A DNA stretch of 64,000 nt from an uncultured Flavobacteriales bacterium (GTDB taxonomy: Bacteria > Bacteroidota > Bacteroidia > Flavobacteriales > JBLHRE01), in assembly GCA_937139155.1 (NCBI GenBank), contig CAKZPI010000032.1, positions 44,969 through 108,968 on the forward strand. Direction: 5' to 3'. The position numbers and the translations under genes are program-made. Under the pieces are notes generated by a model. It was not told the DNA's origin and ran no database searches. It saw only the letters and a program-made list of their open reading frames with translations. Positions 27,583-45,436 of this stretch are shown here, piece after piece (position 1 is the stretch's first letter; every line of letters begins with the position of its first letter).

Positions 27583-27591
27583 CTTTGCCGG

Positions 27592-27931
27592 GCATGTAGC
27601 TTGTCGCCCGCCTTAGGTGGGAGGAAAGTCCGGGCAGCAAAGGACAGCCTGCTTCCTAACGGGAAGGCTTAATTATTTTAAGGAGTACTGCAGAAGAAAA
27701 TAACCGTCCGCCTCAGGCGGATAAGGGTGAGAAGGTGGGGTAAGGGCCCACCAGCAATGTGGTGACATATTGGCTGTGCAGCTCAGGCGCTGAAATGCCA
27801 TGTATACCTCGGGTTGAAAGCGGTCCGCTTGATCAGTTTACTGAACCGGGGAGGGTAGGCAGATGGATCCATAGGGTGACTTATGGGCTAGATAAATGAC
27901 AGGCCTTGACAGAATCCGGCTTATCGCATGC
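27592..27931 (+). ncRNA. rnpB: RNase P RNA, bacterial type A
   Basis: Universally conserved 'GAGGAAAGTCCGGGC', 'AAGGGTGAGAAGGTGGGGTAAGGGCCCACC' and 'ACAGAATCCGGCTTATCG'. P1 pairing GCATG/CATGC. The ends are accurate to about +/-5 nt. Confidence 0.9.
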
Positions 27932-27939
27932 AAAGAATT

Positions 27940-27970
27940 AGGGGTCGCTCATTGGGCGGCCTCTTTTTTT
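27940..27970 (+). terminator. Intrinsic terminator of rnpB; the hairpin encloses the stop codon of the convergent histidine kinase gene
   Basis: 9-bp stem AGGGGTCGC/GCGGCCTCT (two G-U pairs), 7-nt loop, then T7. Confidence 0.6.
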
Positions 27971-29205
27971 GGAATGGTGAATTGAAAGGTTGAGCCTTTG
28001 CCCAGTTCAGATTTAACCCAAATTTCTCCATTGTGTTTTTCAATGATTCGTTTTATAAGGGCTAGGCCTACACCTGAGCTTTCTTCCAAAGCCATATCAC
28101 TTAAAATCTTTCCGAATCTAAAGAGCTGGCTTTGCTGCTCTGGGCTCAGTCCAATGCCATTGTCTTTGATTTTAATGTGGTACGAATTTTCCAATTCGTC
28201 CAAGGTGATTTTCACCTTTTTTATCTCACTTGAATTATACTTAACGGCATTGGTGAGCAAGTTTTGAAAAACAGTTTGAAGCTCTGAGGGGTTGAAAGTT
28301 ACTTCCGTTTCCTCAAAATCAAGTTTAATTTTTACGTCCTCTTTAAACTGTAAATAGTTTAGGAGTTTTTCAAGGAAAGCTTTGATTTCAAGGGTTTCAG
28401 TTTCGGCTGTTTTACCTGCAGCTTTTGAGAAATTCAATACTTGATTAATGAAGTCTTTCATTTTATTGCTTTGTTCCTCAATCATTTGAGAGAACTTCTC
28501 AAGCTTTAATTTGTTTTGTTCTTCTTTAACAAAGGCGGCAAGGATTAAAATATTGTTCAAAGGGGCTTTAAGGTCATGAGCTACAAGGTTTGCAAAGTCT
28601 TGGATTTCTTGGTTTCTAGCCGCTAATTCTTCCGTTTTTTTACGGAGGTTTTCATTGGCCTTAATCAAGGCCTTCTGTTGTTGTTTAATCTCCTTGTAAG
28701 CCGCGGTTAACTCTTGGTTGTTTTCCTTGACAATATCCAGGTAGTTATTGGTTTCGGCCTTCATTTTATTCAGCCATTCTACCAGGGTTTCTGGGTCAAT
28801 TTCTATGGCTACAGGAAGAACTATTCCAATTTTAACTTTTGTGCCTTCCTTTCCTGTTTCAATTTCGAAGGAATCACAAAGCCGTTTGGCGCCTCTAAGT
28901 CCTAGGCCCAAGCCAGAGCTGCTCTTATAGTTTCCAGAGAGAATTTCAGAGAGGTTTTCAATTCCTGGTCCGTGGTCTTGAACAATGGCCACAAGCTCCT
29001 GTGGTGCTTCTTCGGTAATGTAGAAGGTGATTTCTCCAGAGTTTCCGTATTTAATCACGTTCCTCACCAATTCAGAAATAGCTGTGGTAAACTTTGAGGT
29101 GTCTTGTTTGCTGAGTTGACATAATTCAGCCAAGGTACTTACCCTTCTTCGAATAATGCCAGAATCAGATTCATGGTTGATTTGAATTTCCTTTATATAA
29201 ATCAT
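27949..29205 (-). CDS. Histidine kinase with an N-terminal RsbT/RsbW-like GHKL domain, a coiled coil, HisKA and HATPase_c
   Basis: N-terminal boxes 'ELVRNVIKYG', 'DHGPGI' and 'GLGLGLRGAKRL'. H-box 'VAHDLKAPL' (His210). C-terminal 'NLLTNAVKYN', 'DNGIGL' and 'GVGLALIKRIIE.HNG'. Confidence 0.85.
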   Translation of the reverse strand: MIYIKEIQINHESDSGIIRRRVSTLAELCQLSKQDTSKFTTAISELVRNVIKYGNSGEITFYITEEAPQELVAIVQDHGPGIENLSEILSGNYKSSSGLGLGLRGAKRLCDSFEIETGKEGTKVKIGIVLPVAIEIDPETLVEWLNKMKAETNNYLDIVKENNQELTAAYKEIKQQQKALIKANENLRKKTEELAARNQEIQDFANLVAHDLKAPLNNILILAAFVKEEQNKLKLEKFSQMIEEQSNKMKDFINQVLNFSKAAGKTAETETLEIKAFLEKLLNYLQFKEDVKIKLDFEETEVTFNPSELQTVFQNLLTNAVKYNSSEIKKVKITLDELENSYHIKIKDNGIGLSPEQQSQLFRFGKILSDMALEESSGVGLALIKRIIEKHNGEIWVKSELGKGSTFQFTIPKKEAAQ

Positions 29206-30221
29206 AGGTCATTCTTTATGATTAATATGGAGGCATCATCCGTGTTTCGAATCTTTTTATGCATTAGATAGGCTGCAATTACTGGACTTTCTTTTCCGTA
29301 AAGTTCAGAAGGGAAGTCTTTGGAGGTTACATTTGAAAGACCATCCGAATGTAAAACTAGGATGGCCCCTTTAGGAAAGGGCAGAATTTGTGGTTTTGGA
29401 AGGTTTTGGTCTTTACCAAAAAGCCCAGATTTACTAATAAGGTGCTTCGGTTTTTCCCCATATTGGTAGATTGCGGCTTGAACATTTCCCATCCCGAAAA
29501 AAGTAAGCTCCTCTTTTTCATGATGGATTTCCCCAAAGCCTAAAACGCCTCCTCTTTTAGCATTGGCTTCCTGAAACATTCCCTCCCAAAGAGACTCTGG
29601 GGAAAGGTTAAAATTTCTTCGAAAATAATTTCCCACGGAAGTGGATGAATCAGCGGCTTCACTTCCATGACCTAACCCATCCATTAATAAGAAATGGGTT
29701 TCCTCCTTTGTTTCTTCAATTCCAGTCCAATCACCAGACGTTTTTTGACCAGGAATCGCAAAATTGATCCAATGGTGGTCGAAATGGCTTAAAGGTTTTT
29801 TAGGTGCGTCTTTGTTTTTTAATTGGGCGTAGAAGCATGTAAAATCACCTGGAATGGAGGCGAAAATAAGTTTAGAGCTAAACCTTTTTATGGCCCCGAG
29901 TCCGCTACCCGAAGACCCACCGGTAGAATAACCATCTTCAAAGCTCTTGGTGAAGTTTTTAATCCCGGGTCCCTGATCGTAGGCCATGATTTCTATAAAA
30001 CCTGAAAGGCCTGAAAACCTGAAAATAATTTCCCCGCCTCCTGCGTACTTTACTAGGTTACTTCCTAGTTCAGTAATAACAAGTTTGGCTTCGGCTAGGG
30101 TAAGAGGTGTGAAATATGGTAAGTCTTTAAACCCATCGATTTCCCTTCTGGCTACTCCCACATCTGTTTGAGCCTTTATCTTAAACCGGAGGAAATTATG
30201 TGGCAAGGTAAATTTCACCAT
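29202..30221 (-). CDS. RsbT/RsbW-like GHKL domain fused to a PP2C (SpoIIE-type) phosphatase; sits in the RsbX position
   Basis: N-terminal 'ELGSNLVKYAGGG', 'DQGPGI' and 'GSGLGAIKR'. C-terminal PP2C motifs 'LMDGLGHG' and 'VLHSDGL'. ATGA overlap with the downstream gene. Confidence 0.8.
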   Translation of the reverse strand: MVKFTLPHNFLRFKIKAQTDVGVARREIDGFKDLPYFTPLTLAEAKLVITELGSNLVKYAGGGEIIFRFSGLSGFIEIMAYDQGPGIKNFTKSFEDGYSTGGSSGSGLGAIKRFSSKLIFASIPGDFTCFYAQLKNKDAPKKPLSHFDHHWINFAIPGQKTSGDWTGIEETKEETHFLLMDGLGHGSEAADSSTSVGNYFRRNFNLSPESLWEGMFQEANAKRGGVLGFGEIHHEKEELTFFGMGNVQAAIYQYGEKPKHLISKSGLFGKDQNLPKPQILPFPKGAILVLHSDGLSNVTSKDFPSELYGKESPVIAAYLMHKKIRNTDDASILIIKNDL

Positions 30222-30622
30222 TGAGCAATTCTAATTTCTGTTCCATTTCGGCATTCAAGAACTTCAAATTCAGCACAAAGCCTTTTCGCTCCTGGAAGAC
30301 CTAGGCCTAAACTACCCCCGGTTGAAAAACCATCTTTTAAGGCAGATTCAATTTCTGCAATTCCGGGTCCTTGATCCTTGAAAGTTGCCTGAATTTTACC
30401 CTTGCCTTTAGGGCCTATAGATTCCGAAAAAACCACAGTTCCAGAGCCTGCATGGTTGAGCATATTTCTACCCAATTCACTCACGGCAGTTATGAACTTT
30501 GTAATGGCCAATGGGCCTAAACCAAGTTTTTTAGAGAGTTCTTTTGCTTGCCTTCTGGCCTCTGCTAGGTCGCGTTCAGTATTAATTTCCTGAAAGATTT
30601 CCTCCATGGCTTGGGTCTTCAT
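30215..30622 (-). CDS. rsbT: RsbT-like serine/threonine kinase (stressosome switch kinase)
   Basis: Alignable by eye to B. subtilis RsbT: 'ITAVSELGRNML.HAG', 'DQGPGI', 'DGFSTGGSLGLGLPGAKRL' and 'GTEI...W'. Confidence 0.85.
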   Translation of the reverse strand: MKTQAMEEIFQEINTERDLAEARRQAKELSKKLGLGPLAITKFITAVSELGRNMLNHAGSGTVVFSESIGPKGKGKIQATFKDQGPGIAEIESALKDGFSTGGSLGLGLPGAKRLCAEFEVLECRNGTEIRIAQW

Positions 30623-31007
30623 CTAAGTCAATGTCTTCTTGGGCAGCCTCCGAATTAATTTCGTCTTGCAGCAGCTTCATCCCAAGGTTCATGTTTATGG
30701 CGGTTTGAATGTTTTTCAATTCCATTCCAAGCTCAACAAGGGTAATAGCTACAGCTGGCTGCATACCAACAACTACAGTTTTTGCCCCCATAATTTTACT
30801 TACTTCAGAAACCATTCCTAAGACCCTTCCAATGTAGGTGTCTACCATGTCAAGGGCCGAAATATCTATAAGCACTCCTTTTGCGGAGGATTTGCTCAGC
30901 CTATTGCCCATTTCTTCTTGGAACTGGTTTGCAACCGTATCATAAATGTCTCCTTGAAGGCTTACAACGAGAATTTCATTGAATTCTAATATGGGTATTC
31001 TCTCCAT
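30582..31007 (-). CDS. rsbS: RsbS-like single STAS-domain stressosome scaffold protein
   Basis: 'IPIL......LVVSLQ', 'VLIDISALDMVDTYI' and 'MGAKTVVVGMQPAVAITLVELG' closely parallel B. subtilis RsbS. Thr57 sits at the position of the phospho-acceptor Ser59. Confidence 0.9.
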   Translation of the reverse strand: MERIPILEFNEILVVSLQGDIYDTVANQFQEEMGNRLSKSSAKGVLIDISALDMVDTYIGRVLGMVSEVSKIMGAKTVVVGMQPAVAITLVELGMELKNIQTAINMNLGMKLLQDEINSEAAQEDIDLDEDPSHGGNLSGN

Positions 31008-31008
31008 T

Positions 31009-31881
31009 TTACTGGGTCTTTTTAGCCACTACTTCAAGGCCAAGGTTATTGAGGGCTGTGTGAAGGGCATCGGCCATAGATGCCTTGGTTTGGCTATGCT
31101 CATCAAGAGAAACTCCAAGCCCAACCATGGTAGTGGCAATTTCAGGGCGGATTCCAGAGATGATGCATTTTCCACCCATAAGGCGTATGGCAGAAGTGGT
31201 TTTAATGATGTGCTGAGCGGTCATGGTATCAACCGTTGGAACCCCAGAAATGTCGATGATTACATTTCGGTATCCTGTTTCAACAATTTCTTGAAGGATG
31301 TTTTCCATGAGTTGTTGAGCACGCATTGAGTCTAAGGTTCCAACAATGGGAAGGGTTAAAATCCCGTTCCAAACCTTGATTACGGGGGTAGACAACTCCA
31401 TGATTTCAGACTGCTGAGCCCGAATAATTTCATCTCGTTCCTGAACAAAAGACTCAACCACCATTATGCTAAGTTCCTCGGCCAGTTTATTAAAACCCAT
31501 CATGTCTTCTTGGTAGGGCTCGGTTTCTTCCGGTTTATGCTTTTCCCCAACCACAATGAAAAAAGCGAGTCGCCAGCCCAGTACATATCGGGCGGTGTCT
31601 CCTGGGCTAAACCCTTGAACCACCCTTTTCTTTGCGAAGTCTTGAACAATTTGTTCAAGTTGGCTGGATTCATTTCCAATGATTTTTTGAAAGGAGTTCA
31701 CCGAACTTATATCTTCCAAAACGGCATCATAAAATGCCCCACATTCTTCAATAAAGTCATCCTTCCGCCTACCGAGCTTCCCTTGGTGCAACTCCAATTG
31801 CTCCTGGGTCCACTTTTCTAAAATTTCAGAACGGTAATCTTCCAAATACTTTACAACGATATTCTTTTTTTTAGCGCACAT
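31009..31881 (-). CDS. rsbR: RsbR-like stressosome sensor: N-terminal RsbR-type (globin-fold-like) domain plus C-terminal STAS
   Basis: STAS motifs 'LTLPIVGTLDSMRAQ' and 'IIDISGVPTVDTMTAQHII'. Ser185/Thr219 are 34 residues apart, the same spacing as RsbRA Thr171/Thr205. Confidence 0.85.
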   Translation of the reverse strand: MCAKKKNIVVKYLEDYRSEILEKWTQEQLELHQGKLGRRKDDFIEECGAFYDAVLEDISSVNSFQKIIGNESSQLEQIVQDFAKKRVVQGFSPGDTARYVLGWRLAFFIVVGEKHKPEETEPYQEDMMGFNKLAEELSIMVVESFVQERDEIIRAQQSEIMELSTPVIKVWNGILTLPIVGTLDSMRAQQLMENILQEIVETGYRNVIIDISGVPTVDTMTAQHIIKTTSAIRLMGGKCIISGIRPEIATTMVGLGVSLDEHSQTKASMADALHTALNNLGLEVVAKKTQ

Positions 31882-31990: not shown

Positions 31991-31994
31991 GAAG

Positions 31995-32067
31995 TCGAGG
32001 TGACAGGACTTGAACCTGCGACCCCACGCCCCCCAGACGTGTACTCTACCAACTGAGCTACACCTCG
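31995..32067 (-). tRNA. tRNA-Pro (anticodon GGG)
   Basis: Hand-folded cloverleaf: acceptor CGAGGTG/CACCTCG, D-arm GCTC-AGTTGGTA-GAGT, anticodon arm CACGT-CTGGGGG-GCGTG, T-arm GCAGG-TTCAAGT-CCTGT, discriminator A. No encoded CCA. Confidence 0.9.
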
Positions 32068-44045: not shown

Positions 44046-44987
44046 ATGAGAACAAATATCATTCGCCCTTTTTTAATGGCCTTCCTGATTCTTGGTCTAT
44101 TTACCAATTGGGGCTTCTTTGGTCATGAAACCATTCATGAAAAGGCGGTTTATTCCCTGCCAAAGGAAATGTGGCCCCTTTACAAAGAGCATATTGCCAT
44201 TTTGATTGAGAAGTCAACCAACCCCGATAAAAGGCGGCATTTCTCAAAAAAAGAACCTCCCAAGCATTATATTGATTTAGATGCTTTTCGGGTAAACCCA
44301 AAAACGGTTTTCCCCGCCAATTGGGATTCAGCAAAATCATTTCTAACCGAAGATACCCTCTGGGCATATGGGGTGCTTCCCTGGAATATTGAATGGGTTT
44401 ATTACGATTTGGTAGAAGCCTTCGACTCAAATGATGCACAGGCAATTCTAAGGCTTAGTGCAGATCTGGGCCATTATATTTCTGACGCTTGCGTTCCTTT
44501 GCATACCACGGTTAACTACAATGGGCAATTAACAAATCAACGAGGAATTCACGGGTTTTGGGAGTCTAGGTTGCCCGAATTATTTGCGGAGGAATATTTC
44601 TTGTACCCTGGCCAGGCTGAGTACATTCACAACCGTCAAGAGTATATTTGGGCAATCATCTTTGAAAGCTTTTCGGCCAAGGATTCGGTACTTGACTTAG
44701 ATAAGAAGGTTCAAGAGGCTTTCGCCGATGAAGGAACCCAGTCTATTTCTGAGCGGAAAGGGCAGGGGGTCAGAACTCAGTCAATTGAGGCCTCAAGGGC
44801 TTACCATGAAGCATTGAATGGCATGGTTGAAAGAAGGATGAGGCGGTCAATAAAGGCCGTGGCTGATTTCTGGTTTACCGCCTGGGTAGATGCAGGTCAA
44901 CCCAATTTGAAAAACCTGGAGCTTGAAAAGGATGGGGAAACAAAGTTTTTTGGAGAGAAAGTTCTAGAGAAGCTTTGGGGAAATTAA
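44046..44987 (+). CDS. Zinc-dependent phospholipase C / S1-P1 nuclease superfamily protein
   Basis: After the signal sequence, 'WGFFGHETI', like the N-terminal Trp/His zinc ligands of this superfamily. Later 'H..D...PLH'. I chose the start at ATG 44046. Confidence 0.55.
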   Translation: MRTNIIRPFLMAFLILGLFTNWGFFGHETIHEKAVYSLPKEMWPLYKEHIAILIEKSTNPDKRRHFSKKEPPKHYIDLDAFRVNPKTVFPANWDSAKSFLTEDTLWAYGVLPWNIEWVYYDLVEAFDSNDAQAILRLSADLGHYISDACVPLHTTVNYNGQLTNQRGIHGFWESRLPELFAEEYFLYPGQAEYIHNRQEYIWAIIFESFSAKDSVLDLDKKVQEAFADEGTQSISERKGQGVRTQSIEASRAYHEALNGMVERRMRRSIKAVADFWFTAWVDAGQPNLKNLELEKDGETKFFGEKVLEKLWGN

Positions 44988-45436
44988 TCCTTAATCAAAT
45001 GGGGGAAGTGTTTTTTCACAATTTCCCGGAAAGCGGTAACCGTGAGGGGTTTATTATAAAACCCAGACAATTCTTTTTCTTCTGAACGTTCCCGATCGTC
45101 AGGATTTAAAGAAACGGTAAGCATCATGACCACCACCTTTGCTTTTTCCTCGGGCGGAAGGAGGTCGTATTCTTCCATGAACTCCCAACCATTCATGCCC
45201 GGCATATTTATGTCAAGCAAAATTAGGTCGGGTTGCCGCTCATCATTTCTATGGTTAAACTTTAAAAAGGTTAAAGCGTCTTTTCCGGAAAGAACGGAAA
45301 CAACTCTACTTACAAGTCCGCTTCGTTTTACAACCTTTTTATGCAAGAAATTATCAGCCTCGTTATCGTCAACGAGCAATACATGAAGTCTTTCGTTTGT
45401 CTCTAGTCCAGGCTCAAATTCTGGGAGGGTGTTCAT
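44984..45436 (-). CDS. Stand-alone response-regulator receiver domain protein
   Basis: 'VLLVDDNEAD', phospho-acceptor 'LILLDINMPGMNG' and 'KPL'. No output domain. Confidence 0.85.
   Translation of the reverse strand: MNTLPEFEPGLETNERLHVLLVDDNEADNFLHKKVVKRSGLVSRVVSVLSGKDALTFLKFNHRNDERQPDLILLDINMPGMNGWEFMEEYDLLPPEEKAKVVVMMLTVSLNPDDRERSEEKELSGFYNKPLTVTAFREIVKKHFPHLIKD

What the first reader, a model, noticed from the sequence alone, without database searches (positions are those of the whole stretch)
27949..29205. Histidine kinase whose sensor position is occupied by an RsbT/RsbW-like kinase domain
The 418-aa protein has no TM, PAS or GAF sensor. Its first ~130 aa carry the N, G1 and G2 boxes of a GHKL Ser/Thr kinase ('ELVRNVIKYG', 'DHGPGI', 'GLGLGL'), very like the stand-alone RsbT two genes upstream. 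A ~70-aa heptad-rich linker follows, then the H-box (His210) and a second, classical HATPase_c. One polypeptide thus carries two ATP-binding kinase modules. My inference is that the N-terminal domain docks on, or phosphorylates, the STAS scaffold. Stressosome state would then gate His-Asp phosphotransfer directly, replacing the RsbT-to-RsbU step.
Basis: inference. Interest (0 to 1): 0.55.

Follow-up and report, generated by a model that had tools for sequence, protein, structure and literature searches.

The report
Stressosome-linked histidine kinase with RsbT-like head
This gene encodes a soluble histidine kinase whose sensor position holds a copy of the stressosome kinase RsbT; it is the last gene of a five-gene stress-sensing cassette found almost unchanged in hundreds of species from many phyla, so it is an ordinary member of a large family that, as far as I could find, nobody has studied experimentally.

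Summary
ORF 27949-29205 (-) encodes 418 aa: an RsbT/RsbW-type GHKL domain (aa 1-135), a long helical linker, HisKA with His210, and a classical HATPase_c. There is no TM, PAS or GAF domain.

The protein is not a local oddity. It closes an overlapping operon: rsbR, rsbS, rsbT, [RsbT-like+PP2C], [RsbT-like+HK]. One linker sub-type of this HK family alone matched at least 588 species genomes. About 68 of 70 loci with enough upstream DNA carry the same five genes.

The three GHKL domains form three ancient orthologous groups. All keep the ATP-site residues at about 100%. The predicted N-domain fold is closest to SpoIIAB and RsbW, both solved bound to STAS partners.

Stand-alone RsbT is always retained, so "replacing" RsbT is doubtful.

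Verdict: a real feature. It is a minimal, REC-less Bacteroidota member of a widespread, unnamed variant of stressosome output. Moderate interest.

The parts
27949..29205 (-). Whole gene: RsbT-like GHKL + helical linker + HisKA + HATPase_c histidine kinase (418 aa)
   Evidence: ORF; Pfam; AF2 model with pLDDT 89
28801..29205 (-). N-terminal RsbT-paralogue GHKL domain (aa 1-135; group 'T3')
   Evidence: HATPase_c_2 at 65 bits. Scores 132 bits against the T3 group HMM, 91 against RsbT and 70 against the PP2C-head group. AF2 pLDDT 94.4; top PDB folds are SpoIIAB and RsbW.
28603..28800 (-). Connector helix (aa 138-149) and coiled-coil linker (aa 155-201), with the family-invariant QNQEL-type motif (N163, L166)
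   Evidence: Alignments; continuous helix 155-228 in the AF2 model; heptad test
28414..28602 (-). DHp/HisKA domain with phospho-acceptor His210 (codon 28576-28578)
   Evidence: Pfam HisKA aa 202-262; translation; H210 invariant in the family
27964..28398 (-). Catalytic HATPase_c domain of the histidine kinase (aa 270-414)
   Evidence: Pfam, E 2e-38; Foldseek HK853, about 30% identity, TM(target) about 0.68
29202..30221 (-). Upstream neighbour: RsbT-like GHKL head (group 'T2') fused to a PP2C/SpoIIE phosphatase (339 aa). Its stop overlaps the HK start.
   Evidence: Pfam SpoIIE, plus HATPase_c_2 and HATPase_c hits at about 23 bits, below their curated cut-offs; the GHKL head is supported by the T2 group HMM at 94 bits. 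DGLGHG, HSDGL and DD metal motifs and ATP-site residues are conserved in the family.
30215..30622 (-). Stand-alone RsbT (135 aa; group 'T1')
   Evidence: Pfam HATPase_c_2; T1 HMM 117 bits
30582..31007 (-). RsbS (single STAS, 141 aa) with the conserved 'DIS' serine S50
   Evidence: Pfam STAS; family conservation
31009..31881 (-). RsbR (RsbRD_N sensor domain + STAS, 290 aa) with conserved S212 and T251 at the two known phospho-site positions
   Evidence: Pfam RsbRD_N + STAS; family conservation
44984..45436 (-). Candidate partner only: single-domain receiver, the only REC in the window
   Evidence: Pfam Response_reg. Only REC and only HK in 64 kb. It is 30-33% identical to the stand-alone RECs that flank the cassette in L086 and L092, the same level as those two show to each other.

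Best explanation
The gene is the histidine-kinase output of a conserved five-gene stressosome cassette: RsbR (sensor + STAS), RsbS (STAS), RsbT, [RsbT-like head + PP2C phosphatase] and [RsbT-like head + histidine kinase].

Shown here:
- the domain anatomy;
- the tight, phylum-spanning synteny;
- that the three GHKL domains are three ancient orthologous groups with intact ATP sites;
- that the head is predicted to fold like SpoIIAB/RsbW;
- that it is joined to the His210 helix by one uninterrupted helix with an invariant connector motif.

Inferred mechanism: the head is a partner-switching module that binds the STAS domains of RsbS/RsbR, and probably phosphorylates them, as RsbT does. Whether the head is engaged depends on the STAS phosphorylation state, which is set by the RsbT-type kinases and reset by the head-tethered PP2C. 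Engagement or release changes the packing or dimerisation of the coiled-coil linker and so switches autophosphorylation at His210. Phosphate then goes to a receiver. In most relatives that is a fused REC plus a second kinase. Here it would be a separate single-domain REC, possibly 44984-45436. In effect the RsbT-to-target step is hard-wired by fusing an RsbT paralogue to each effector enzyme.
For: - Anatomy.
- Operon: the five ORFs overlap or abut. They are bounded by tRNA-Pro upstream and RNase P RNA downstream.
- Same cassette elsewhere: a 49%-identical Bacteroidota relative, Nostocales HT-58-2, Drouetiella, Rhodocytophaga rosea, Rufibacter psychrotolerans and three metagenome contigs, one of which starts at the PP2C gene.
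Of about 70 loci with at least 3.3 kb upstream, all but L039 and L079 have the full cassette.
- Three paralogue groups: within-group identity 46-60%, between-group 24-35%. Each window domain scores best against its own positional group.
- ATP-site residues are 97-100% conserved in all three groups. An Arg at the position of SpoIIAB R20 is 94-100% conserved.
- Best stand-alone relatives of the head are RsbT proteins.
- The AF2 head (pLDDT 94) is closest to SpoIIAB/SpoIIAA and RsbW/RsbV complex chains, with TM 0.6-0.9 normalised to target length.
- Continuous helix 155-228. Connector residues E158, N163 and L166 are at least 90% conserved.
- RsbS S50 and RsbR S212/T251, and the PP2C metal motifs, are conserved.
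- Literature: docking studies allow one RsbT per STAS monomer with neighbouring RsbTs touching (PMC9237128). Coiled-coil linkers transmit RsbT binding to effector dimers (PMC12143880).
Against: - No experiment or complex prediction here shows head-STAS contact.
- A stand-alone RsbT is retained in virtually every cassette, so the head may not substitute for it.
- In V. vulnificus, which has a different downstream kinase, no RsbT-kinase interaction was detected (PMC9237108).
- Two related loci lack adjacent rsbRST (L039, L079).
- The 80 loci analysed come from one linker sub-type (the 'NRGVVALYAE' insert), which the window protein lacks. Short-type contexts rest on eight further look-ups, one of them without upstream sequence.
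- The heptad signal in the linker is only modest (p about 0.045).
- No cognate receiver is adjacent in this window.
Confidence: 0.55

Rival explanations
1. The head is the docking site for free RsbT, not for STAS. RsbT released from the stressosome pairs with the RsbT-like head (GHKL-GHKL heterodimer) of the kinase and of the PP2C and activates them in trans. The head would then play the role that RsbU_N plays in Bacillus.
For: - Stand-alone RsbT is retained in essentially all cassettes.
- No RsbU_N domain is present on any of the five proteins.
- SpoIIAB/RsbW-type GHKL proteins are dimers (established knowledge), and the head has that fold.
- The head is closer to RsbT (35%) than to the PP2C head (24%).
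Against: - A mere docking surface would not need an intact catalytic site, yet E45, N49, D77 and the G1/G2 glycines are 100% conserved.
- RsbT is not known to form GHKL heterodimers.
- The conserved Arg at the SpoIIAB-R20 position fits a STAS-binding face (the register is my inference).
Confidence: 0.15
2. The head is itself the primary sensor or an autonomous Ser/Thr kinase. An RsbT-type domain would perceive stress or energy (ATP) state directly. Alternatively it would phosphorylate the kinase, the receiver or another protein. The STAS scaffold would only buffer or tune it.
For: - In B. subtilis, stress still activates sigma-B without stressosomes but needs RsbT and its kinase activity (D78N), so RsbT may be a sensor (PMC11821858).
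- The head sits exactly where sensor domains sit in histidine kinases and keeps the equivalent Asp, D77.
- L039 carries a family kinase without a nearby cassette.
Against: - About 97% synteny with rsbR/rsbS argues that the STAS proteins are integral rather than optional.
- No candidate non-STAS substrate is conserved in the cassette.
Confidence: 0.15
3. The head is an anti-sigma-like domain that sequesters a sigma factor or other transcription factor, as RsbW/SpoIIAB do. The histidine kinase would then be a separate activity on the same chain.
For: The fold is closest to the anti-sigma factors SpoIIAB and RsbW. NCBIfam gives weak spIIAB and RsbA hits for the paralogues.
Against: - No sigma factor gene is in the cassette here or in any of the roughly 90 loci annotated.
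- The nearest sequence relatives are RsbT, which binds no sigma factor.
Confidence: 0.04
4. The head is a decayed duplicate of a catalytic domain with no signalling role, or an annotation or gene-fusion artefact.
For: GHKL domains duplicate easily. The Pfam HATPase_c model also matches this region weakly.
Against: - The same fusion with the same boundaries occurs in at least 588 species.
- The head is more conserved than the DHp region.
- Motif residues are invariant.
- The gene was called identically on independent assemblies.
Confidence: 0.02

Closest known systems
Bacillus subtilis stressosome output: RsbR/RsbS/RsbT, then RsbU (RsbU_N + PP2C), with RsbX as reset phosphatase
   Same: RsbR (N-terminal sensor + STAS), RsbS, RsbT and a PP2C are all present with conserved phospho-sites. 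A helical or coiled-coil linker connects the regulatory head to the effector.
   Different: There is no RsbU_N domain, no RsbV/RsbW and no sigma-B. The effectors (PP2C and HK) each carry their own RsbT paralogue instead of a four-helix RsbT-binding domain. The output is His-Asp phosphotransfer.
RsbU_N-fused effectors in stressosome operons (Moorella MtG GGDEF; proteobacterial RsbU_N histidine kinases; PMC12143880, PMC9237108)
   Same: A stressosome operon ends in a non-sigma output enzyme whose N-terminal head is linked by a coiled coil to a dimeric effector.
   Different: There the head is the RsbT target (RsbU_N). Here the head is an RsbT-like kinase domain.
Vibrio vulnificus rsbRSTX + VvD1/VvD2 two-component module (PMC9237108, PMC10014275)
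   Same: A stressosome genetically coupled to a sensor kinase. Mutants of the upstream and downstream modules give similar phenotypes.
   Different: - VvRsbR is a haem globin.
- RsbX is a single-domain PP2C.
- VvD1 is a large PAS-containing kinase; no RsbU_N was detected on it, and the papers read do not mention an RsbT-like head.
- No RsbT-D1 interaction was detected.
SypE of Vibrio fischeri (RsbW-like kinase + REC + PP2C acting on the STAS protein SypA; cited in PMC3999984)
   Same: One chain combines a partner-switching GHKL Ser kinase with another signalling enzyme that acts on, or is governed by, a STAS protein. This is the closest analogue of the neighbouring gene 29202-30221.
   Different: SypE has a central REC and no stressosome. 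The fusion partner in the finding is a histidine kinase, not a phosphatase.
SpoIIAB / RsbW anti-sigma Ser kinases (PDB 1til, 1th8, 1l0o, 6m36, 6m37) and the Rv1364c PP2C-RsbW fusion (3ke6)
   Same: Best structural matches to the head. They share the N, G1 and G2 boxes, and an Arg at the SpoIIAB R20 position.
   Different: They are stand-alone dimers, or in Rv1364c C-terminal to the PP2C, and they bind sigma factors. Sequence identity is only about 20%.
HK853-type class I (HisKA) histidine kinases
   Same: The C-terminal 220 aa are about 30% identical and share the DHp + CA fold.
   Different: Ordinary members have TM, PAS, GAF or HAMP sensors, not a second GHKL kinase domain.

Membership tests
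Partner-switching GHKL Ser/Thr kinases (RsbT/RsbW/SpoIIAB; Pfam HATPase_c_2) | Significant match to HATPase_c_2 above the curated threshold | tested here: met
   aa 18-126, 65 bits against a cut-off of 27.4, E 8.4e-18
Partner-switching GHKL Ser/Thr kinases (RsbT/RsbW/SpoIIAB; Pfam HATPase_c_2) | N box (E...N), G1 (DxGxG) and G2 (GxGxG) ATP-binding motifs | tested here: met
   E45/N49, D77-G79-G81, G98-G100-G102. Invariant or nearly so in the family.
Partner-switching GHKL Ser/Thr kinases (RsbT/RsbW/SpoIIAB; Pfam HATPase_c_2) | SpoIIAB/RsbW-like fold | tested here: met
   Predicted only. AF2 pLDDT 94.4. The top Foldseek PDB hits are mainly SpoIIAB (ranks 1-6) and RsbW (from rank 8), with histidine-kinase CA chains interspersed from rank 7; TM(target) 0.73-0.90.
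Partner-switching GHKL Ser/Thr kinases (RsbT/RsbW/SpoIIAB; Pfam HATPase_c_2) | Closest sequence relatives are RsbT rather than histidine-kinase CA domains | tested here: met
   Best stand-alone hits are 137-aa proteins named RsbT, at 38-46% identity. The RsbT-group HMM gives 91 bits. A PDB profile search, where no RsbT structure was matched, hits a YycG CA domain and SpoIIAB about equally.
Partner-switching GHKL Ser/Thr kinases (RsbT/RsbW/SpoIIAB; Pfam HATPase_c_2) | Stand-alone protein of about 135-160 aa | tested here: not met
   The domain is fused N-terminally to a complete histidine kinase
Partner-switching GHKL Ser/Thr kinases (RsbT/RsbW/SpoIIAB; Pfam HATPase_c_2) | Binds and phosphorylates a Ser/Thr of a STAS-domain partner | not testable with these tools
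   Needs biochemistry or multimer prediction. Only indirect support exists: synteny and conserved phospho-site residues in RsbS/RsbR.
Class I (HisKA) two-component sensor histidine kinases | HisKA/DHp domain with H-box histidine | tested here: met
   HisKA aa 202-262; His210 in HDLKAPL is invariant in the family
Class I (HisKA) two-component sensor histidine kinases | C-terminal HATPase_c with N, G1 and G2 boxes, and a DHp-CA fold | tested here: met
   E 2e-38; N315/N319, D348-G352, G378-G380; Foldseek HK853 at E 2e-18
Class I (HisKA) two-component sensor histidine kinases | Identifiable cognate response regulator | tested here: inconclusive
   None is adjacent. One orphan REC lies 16 kb away, the only one in the window. 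It is of the same single-domain subtype as the RECs next to the cassette in L086 and L092, at 30-33% identity.
Class I (HisKA) two-component sensor histidine kinases | Autophosphorylation on His and phosphotransfer to Asp | not testable with these tools
   Requires an in vitro assay
Stressosome RsbRST(X) module | RsbR (variable N-terminal sensor + STAS), RsbS (STAS) and RsbT encoded together | tested here: met
   RsbRD_N + STAS, STAS and HATPase_c_2 in consecutive overlapping ORFs
Stressosome RsbRST(X) module | Conserved phosphorylatable residues in RsbS and RsbR | tested here: met
   RsbS S50 in the 'DIS' motif; RsbR S212 in 'DISGVP' and T251 in 'RPEIATT'. All are conserved across about 66 cassettes. 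The equivalence to B. subtilis S59, T171 and T205 is by motif, from established knowledge.
Stressosome RsbRST(X) module | PP2C feedback phosphatase (RsbX-like) | tested here: met
   SpoIIE/PP2C domain with conserved DGLGHG, HSDGL and DD motifs. Unlike RsbX, it carries an RsbT-like head.
Stressosome RsbRST(X) module | Downstream target with an RsbU_N domain that receives RsbT | tested here: not met
   No RsbU_N hit on any of the five proteins at E <= 0.01
Stressosome RsbRST(X) module | Assembly into a pseudo-icosahedral RsbR/RsbS complex that sequesters RsbT | not testable with these tools
   Needs cryo-EM or biochemistry

The most novel reading that the evidence does not exclude
In this cassette the stressosome would not act by releasing one small kinase. 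It would be a platform on which three RsbT paralogues (free RsbT, a head-tethered PP2C and a head-tethered histidine kinase) occupy STAS sites side by side. The kinase monomers would be held apart on the scaffold. They would dimerise through the coiled coil, and so become active, only when STAS phosphorylation releases their heads. This would be a direct, scaffold-gated route from stressosome to two-component signalling, used by hundreds of species in at least ten phyla. It would also give evolutionary support to the recent proposal that RsbT-type domains are themselves sensory modules.
Probability: 0.25. Interest if true: 0.75.

Novelty: new variant of a known kind. Interest (0 to 1): 0.48.

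Why it matters
How stressosomes signal in the many bacteria that lack sigma-B and RsbU is an open question. The Vibrio papers state that the link to the downstream kinase is unknown, and that no RsbT-kinase interaction could be detected.

This cassette offers a concrete, testable answer for a very large group of organisms: cyanobacteria, Acidobacteriota, Nitrospirota, Planctomycetota, Bacteroidota and others. Both effector enzymes carry their own RsbT paralogue with an intact ATP site.

The 418-aa window protein and its close Bacteroidota relatives are the smallest versions. They have no REC and no long linker insert, which makes them convenient for biochemistry and structure work. Cultured hosts exist, for example Rhodocytophaga rosea, Rufibacter and Nostoc.

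If the head does bind STAS, it would define a new class of histidine-kinase input domain and widen the known outputs of stressosomes.

Tried and rejected
- Word-indexed search with the N-terminal 202 aa returned only 16 hits, all short (134-254 aa) HATPase_c_2-only proteins, the named ones called RsbT. This wrongly suggested the fusion was rare. The exhaustive search and the profile search corrected that.
- The genome scan with the diverse 24-sequence alignment A2 failed, because no block was conserved enough. I had to use the tighter A3 sub-family, so the count of 588 or more covers only one linker sub-type.
- Megablast of the operon against plasmids found no match.
- A single-sequence PDB search with the head gave only a weak VicK hit. 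The profile search was needed.
- Foldseek with the full-length model is dominated by the HK853-type core and says nothing about the head. The head was therefore modelled alone.
- My automatic cassette count first gave 57 of 67 complete loci. Inspecting the raw tables showed that most 'incomplete' cases were over-extended or frameshifted ORF calls. Only L039 and L079 are real exceptions.
- Eight literature searches found no explicit description of an RsbT-like head on a histidine kinase (for example). The key comparative paper (Pane-Farre et al. 2005, doi 10.1159/000088837) is not held, and the 2017 review was not found by title search. Prior description there cannot be excluded.
- I considered and rejected a gene-fusion artefact, a decayed duplicate CA domain, an anti-sigma role and a mobile-element origin. 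Composition is flat across the region.
Full report
**1. Observation**

The minus-strand ORF 27949-29205 encodes 418 aa. Pfam finds three domains and nothing else:
- HATPase_c_2 at aa 18-126 (65 bits, cut-off 27.4);
- HisKA at aa 202-262;
- HATPase_c at aa 306-414 (E 2e-38).

There is no hydrophobic segment; the highest 19-residue Kyte-Doolittle mean is 1.34.

AlphaFold2 with a 60-sequence family alignment gives mean pLDDT 89. The model has a compact alpha/beta head (aa 1-129), a short helix (138-149), one continuous helix (155-228) that contains His210, the second DHp helix (232-264) and a CA domain. The C-terminal half matches HK853-type kinases, at about 30% identity and E 2e-18. The only overstatement is 'very like RsbT': the head is 34% identical to the operon's RsbT and 24% to the neighbour's head.

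**2. Surroundings**

Five minus-strand ORFs overlap or abut:

| Gene | Coordinates | Domains |
|---|---|---|
| RsbR | 31009-31881 | RsbRD_N + STAS |
| RsbS | 30582-31007 | STAS |
| RsbT | 30215-30622 | GHKL |
| PP2C protein | 29202-30221 | GHKL head + SpoIIE/PP2C |
| Histidine kinase | 27949-29205 | GHKL head + HisKA + HATPase_c |

The 339-aa PP2C protein has an N-terminal GHKL domain of the same kind as the kinase.

The operon is bounded upstream by tRNA-Pro(GGG) with a terminator-like hairpin. Downstream lies a convergent RNase P RNA gene, which fills the apparent 366-bp gap. No receiver is in the operon. The window holds exactly one REC (44984-45436) and one histidine kinase. Flanking genes (Por_Secre_tail, TonB receptor with CarboxypepD_reg, DUF4249) indicate a Bacteroidota genome. 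The identical protein occurs on metagenome contigs without a name.

**3. How common is the architecture?**

- A word-indexed search with the head alone found only RsbT-like proteins.
- An exhaustive HMMER search with the whole protein showed that about 65 of the best 150 cluster representatives align from residue about 5 to the end. Their lengths are 415-470, 575-720 or about 860 aa.
- A profile search returned some 90 full-length (about 400-480 aa) members. Where named, they are called only 'sensor histidine kinase', 'GHKL domain-containing protein' or 'ATP-binding protein'. They include cultured Rhodocytophaga, Rufibacter and Adhaeribacter.
Of those rows, 588 were confirmed relatives. They come from Cyanobacteriota, Acidobacteriota, Nitrospirota, Planctomycetota, Verrucomicrobiota, Pseudomonadota, Desulfobacterota-like, Actinomycetota and other MAGs.

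**4. Is it tied to rsbRST?**

I annotated the 80 returned loci with iterated profiles seeded from the window's own proteins.
- Every locus with enough upstream DNA shows RsbR, RsbS, RsbT, GHKL-PP2C (about 335 aa) and GHKL-HK, with two exceptions.
- L039 has no cassette within 8 kb. L079 has only the PP2C gene.
- That is about 68 of 70 loci.
- The automatic count of 57 of 67 was lowered by over-extended or frameshifted ORF calls visible.

Independent gene calls with precomputed Pfam hits give the same picture for P0018, P0019, P0021, P0025, P0084, P0305 and P0314; the P0022 contig begins at the PP2C gene, so it shows only that gene and the kinase.

Most relatives are hybrid kinases with a C-terminal REC, followed by a second kinase gene. 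The window protein and its Bacteroidota kin are minimal forms. Two of those loci have a stand-alone REC next to the cassette.

**5. The three GHKL domains**

I call the three groups T1 (RsbT), T2 (PP2C head) and T3 (kinase head).

| Comparison | Mean identity |
|---|---|
| Within T1 | 60% |
| Within T2 | 46% |
| Within T3 | 55% |
| T1 vs T3 | 35% |
| T1 vs T2 | 30% |
| T2 vs T3 | 24% |

Identities between groups are the same whether the domains come from one locus or from different loci. Group HMMs built without the window place each window domain in its positional group; the kinase head scores 132, 91 and 70 bits for T3, T1 and T2. The triplication therefore predates the spread of the cassette.

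The ATP-site residues E45, N49, D77, G79, G81, G100 and G102 are 97-100% conserved in all three groups. An Arg (R19 here) is 94-100% conserved in all three. By ungapped register from the E/N box it corresponds to SpoIIAB R20; that correspondence is my inference. T3 additionally has invariant E12 and D14.

The connector (E158, N163, L166) is at least 90% conserved. The common sub-type has an invariant 'LNRELE-TNRGVVALYAELDE' insert that the window protein lacks.

Modelled alone, the head reaches pLDDT 94.4. Its best PDB matches are SpoIIAB (1til, 1tid, 1th8, 1l0o) and RsbW (6m36, 6m37), with histidine-kinase CA chains (RetS, CckA) interspersed from rank 7. The SpoIIAB 1til/1tid/1th8 chains and the RsbW chains come from complexes with a STAS partner, and 1l0o from the complex with sigma-F.

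RsbS S50, RsbR S212 and T251, and the PP2C metal motifs are conserved across cassettes.

**6. Mechanism**

*Shown:* the anatomy, the synteny, the ancient paralogy, the intact nucleotide sites, the SpoIIAB/RsbW-like predicted fold, and a rigid helical connection to His210.

*Inferred:* the head is a partner-switching module that engages RsbS/RsbR STAS domains. Its engagement depends on STAS phosphorylation and is passed through the coiled coil to the DHp.

This fits published ideas:
- One RsbT can dock per STAS monomer, with neighbouring RsbTs in contact (PMC9237128).
- RsbT binding orders a coiled-coil linker to dimerise and activate effectors, and such linkers are interchangeable between PP2C, GGDEF and HK outputs (PMC12143880).

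Rival readings:
- The head receives free RsbT. Stand-alone RsbT is always kept, but an intact catalytic site would then be unexplained.
- The head is itself a sensor or autonomous kinase. This is encouraged by the finding that B. subtilis RsbT, with its kinase activity, supports stress sensing without stressosomes (PMC11821858).
- The head has an anti-sigma role. No sigma gene is anywhere in the cassettes.

I could not run complex predictions, so the choice among the first three rests on indirect arguments.

**7. Comparison with what is known**

Stressosome modules joined to non-sigma outputs, including two-component systems, have been recognised since Pane-Farre et al. 2005, as cited in PMC10014275 and PMC9237108. 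RsbU_N-headed GGDEF and HK proteins are described (PMC12143880). For Vibrio the coupling is explicitly unknown (PMC9237108).

In the papers I could search I found no description of RsbT-like heads on the kinase and the phosphatase. The 2005 paper is not held and I could not find the 2017 review, so prior mention cannot be excluded.

SypE (RsbW-like kinase + REC + PP2C acting on SypA) is the nearest studied analogue of the neighbouring gene (PMC3999984).

I therefore file the cassette as a new, or at least uncharacterised, variant of a known kind. The window gene is an ordinary, minimal member of it.

**8. Verdict**

Interest is moderate (0.48). The architecture is far too common to be a surprise in this genome. 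Its breadth, the triple RsbT paralogy and the lack of any experimental work make it a useful entry point to an open question in stressosome signalling.

Noticed in passing
window 27588-27939 (+): Bacterial RNase P RNA class A (RF00010, 196.6 bits). It fills the whole 'intergenic gap' after the kinase stop codon and is convergent with the kinase. A GC-rich hairpin at 27940-27964 sits over both 3' ends and may act as a shared terminator.
   Followed up: partly
window 31994-32067 (-): tRNA-Pro(GGG) lies immediately upstream of rsbR on the same strand, followed by a terminator-like hairpin (31990-31959). That leaves only about 75 bp for the operon's own promoter.
   Followed up: partly
window 29202-30221 (-): The PP2C phosphatase next to the kinase also has an RsbT-like GHKL head with an intact ATP site in its family. 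It resembles SypE without the REC.
   Followed up: yes
window 44984-45436 (-): This is the only receiver domain in the 64-kb window. It is a single-domain REC of the same subtype (30-33% identity) as the RECs that sit beside the cassette in L086 and L092. It is a candidate partner, but the similarity is no higher than between unrelated members of that subtype.
   Followed up: partly
L006-L085 (for example L005 8001-10142); alignment A3: The commonest sub-family has an invariant roughly 20-residue linker insert, LNRELE(D/E)TNRGVVALYAELDE, between the QNQEL connector and the H-box. The window protein lacks it. No known motif was assigned.
   Followed up: no
L087 5173-5996: The Drouetiella cassette carries two consecutive stand-alone RsbT paralogues before the PP2C gene.
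   Followed up: no
L039 7938-9836; L079 6965-9680: Two family kinases lack an adjacent rsbRST. Potamolinea (L039) has no cassette gene within 8 kb. An Acidobacteriota MAG (L079) keeps only the head-PP2C gene.
   Followed up: partly
window 30582-30622: rsbS and rsbT overlap by 41 bp as called from the first start codon. The other junctions overlap by 4-7 bp or abut, which is consistent with translational coupling.
   Followed up: no
L005 10153-12504 and most cyanobacterial/acidobacterial loci: In most relatives the head-kinase is a hybrid (+REC) and is followed by a second kinase gene (for example REC-PAS-HisKA-HATPase-REC). This suggests a multi-step relay that is absent from the window.
   Followed up: no
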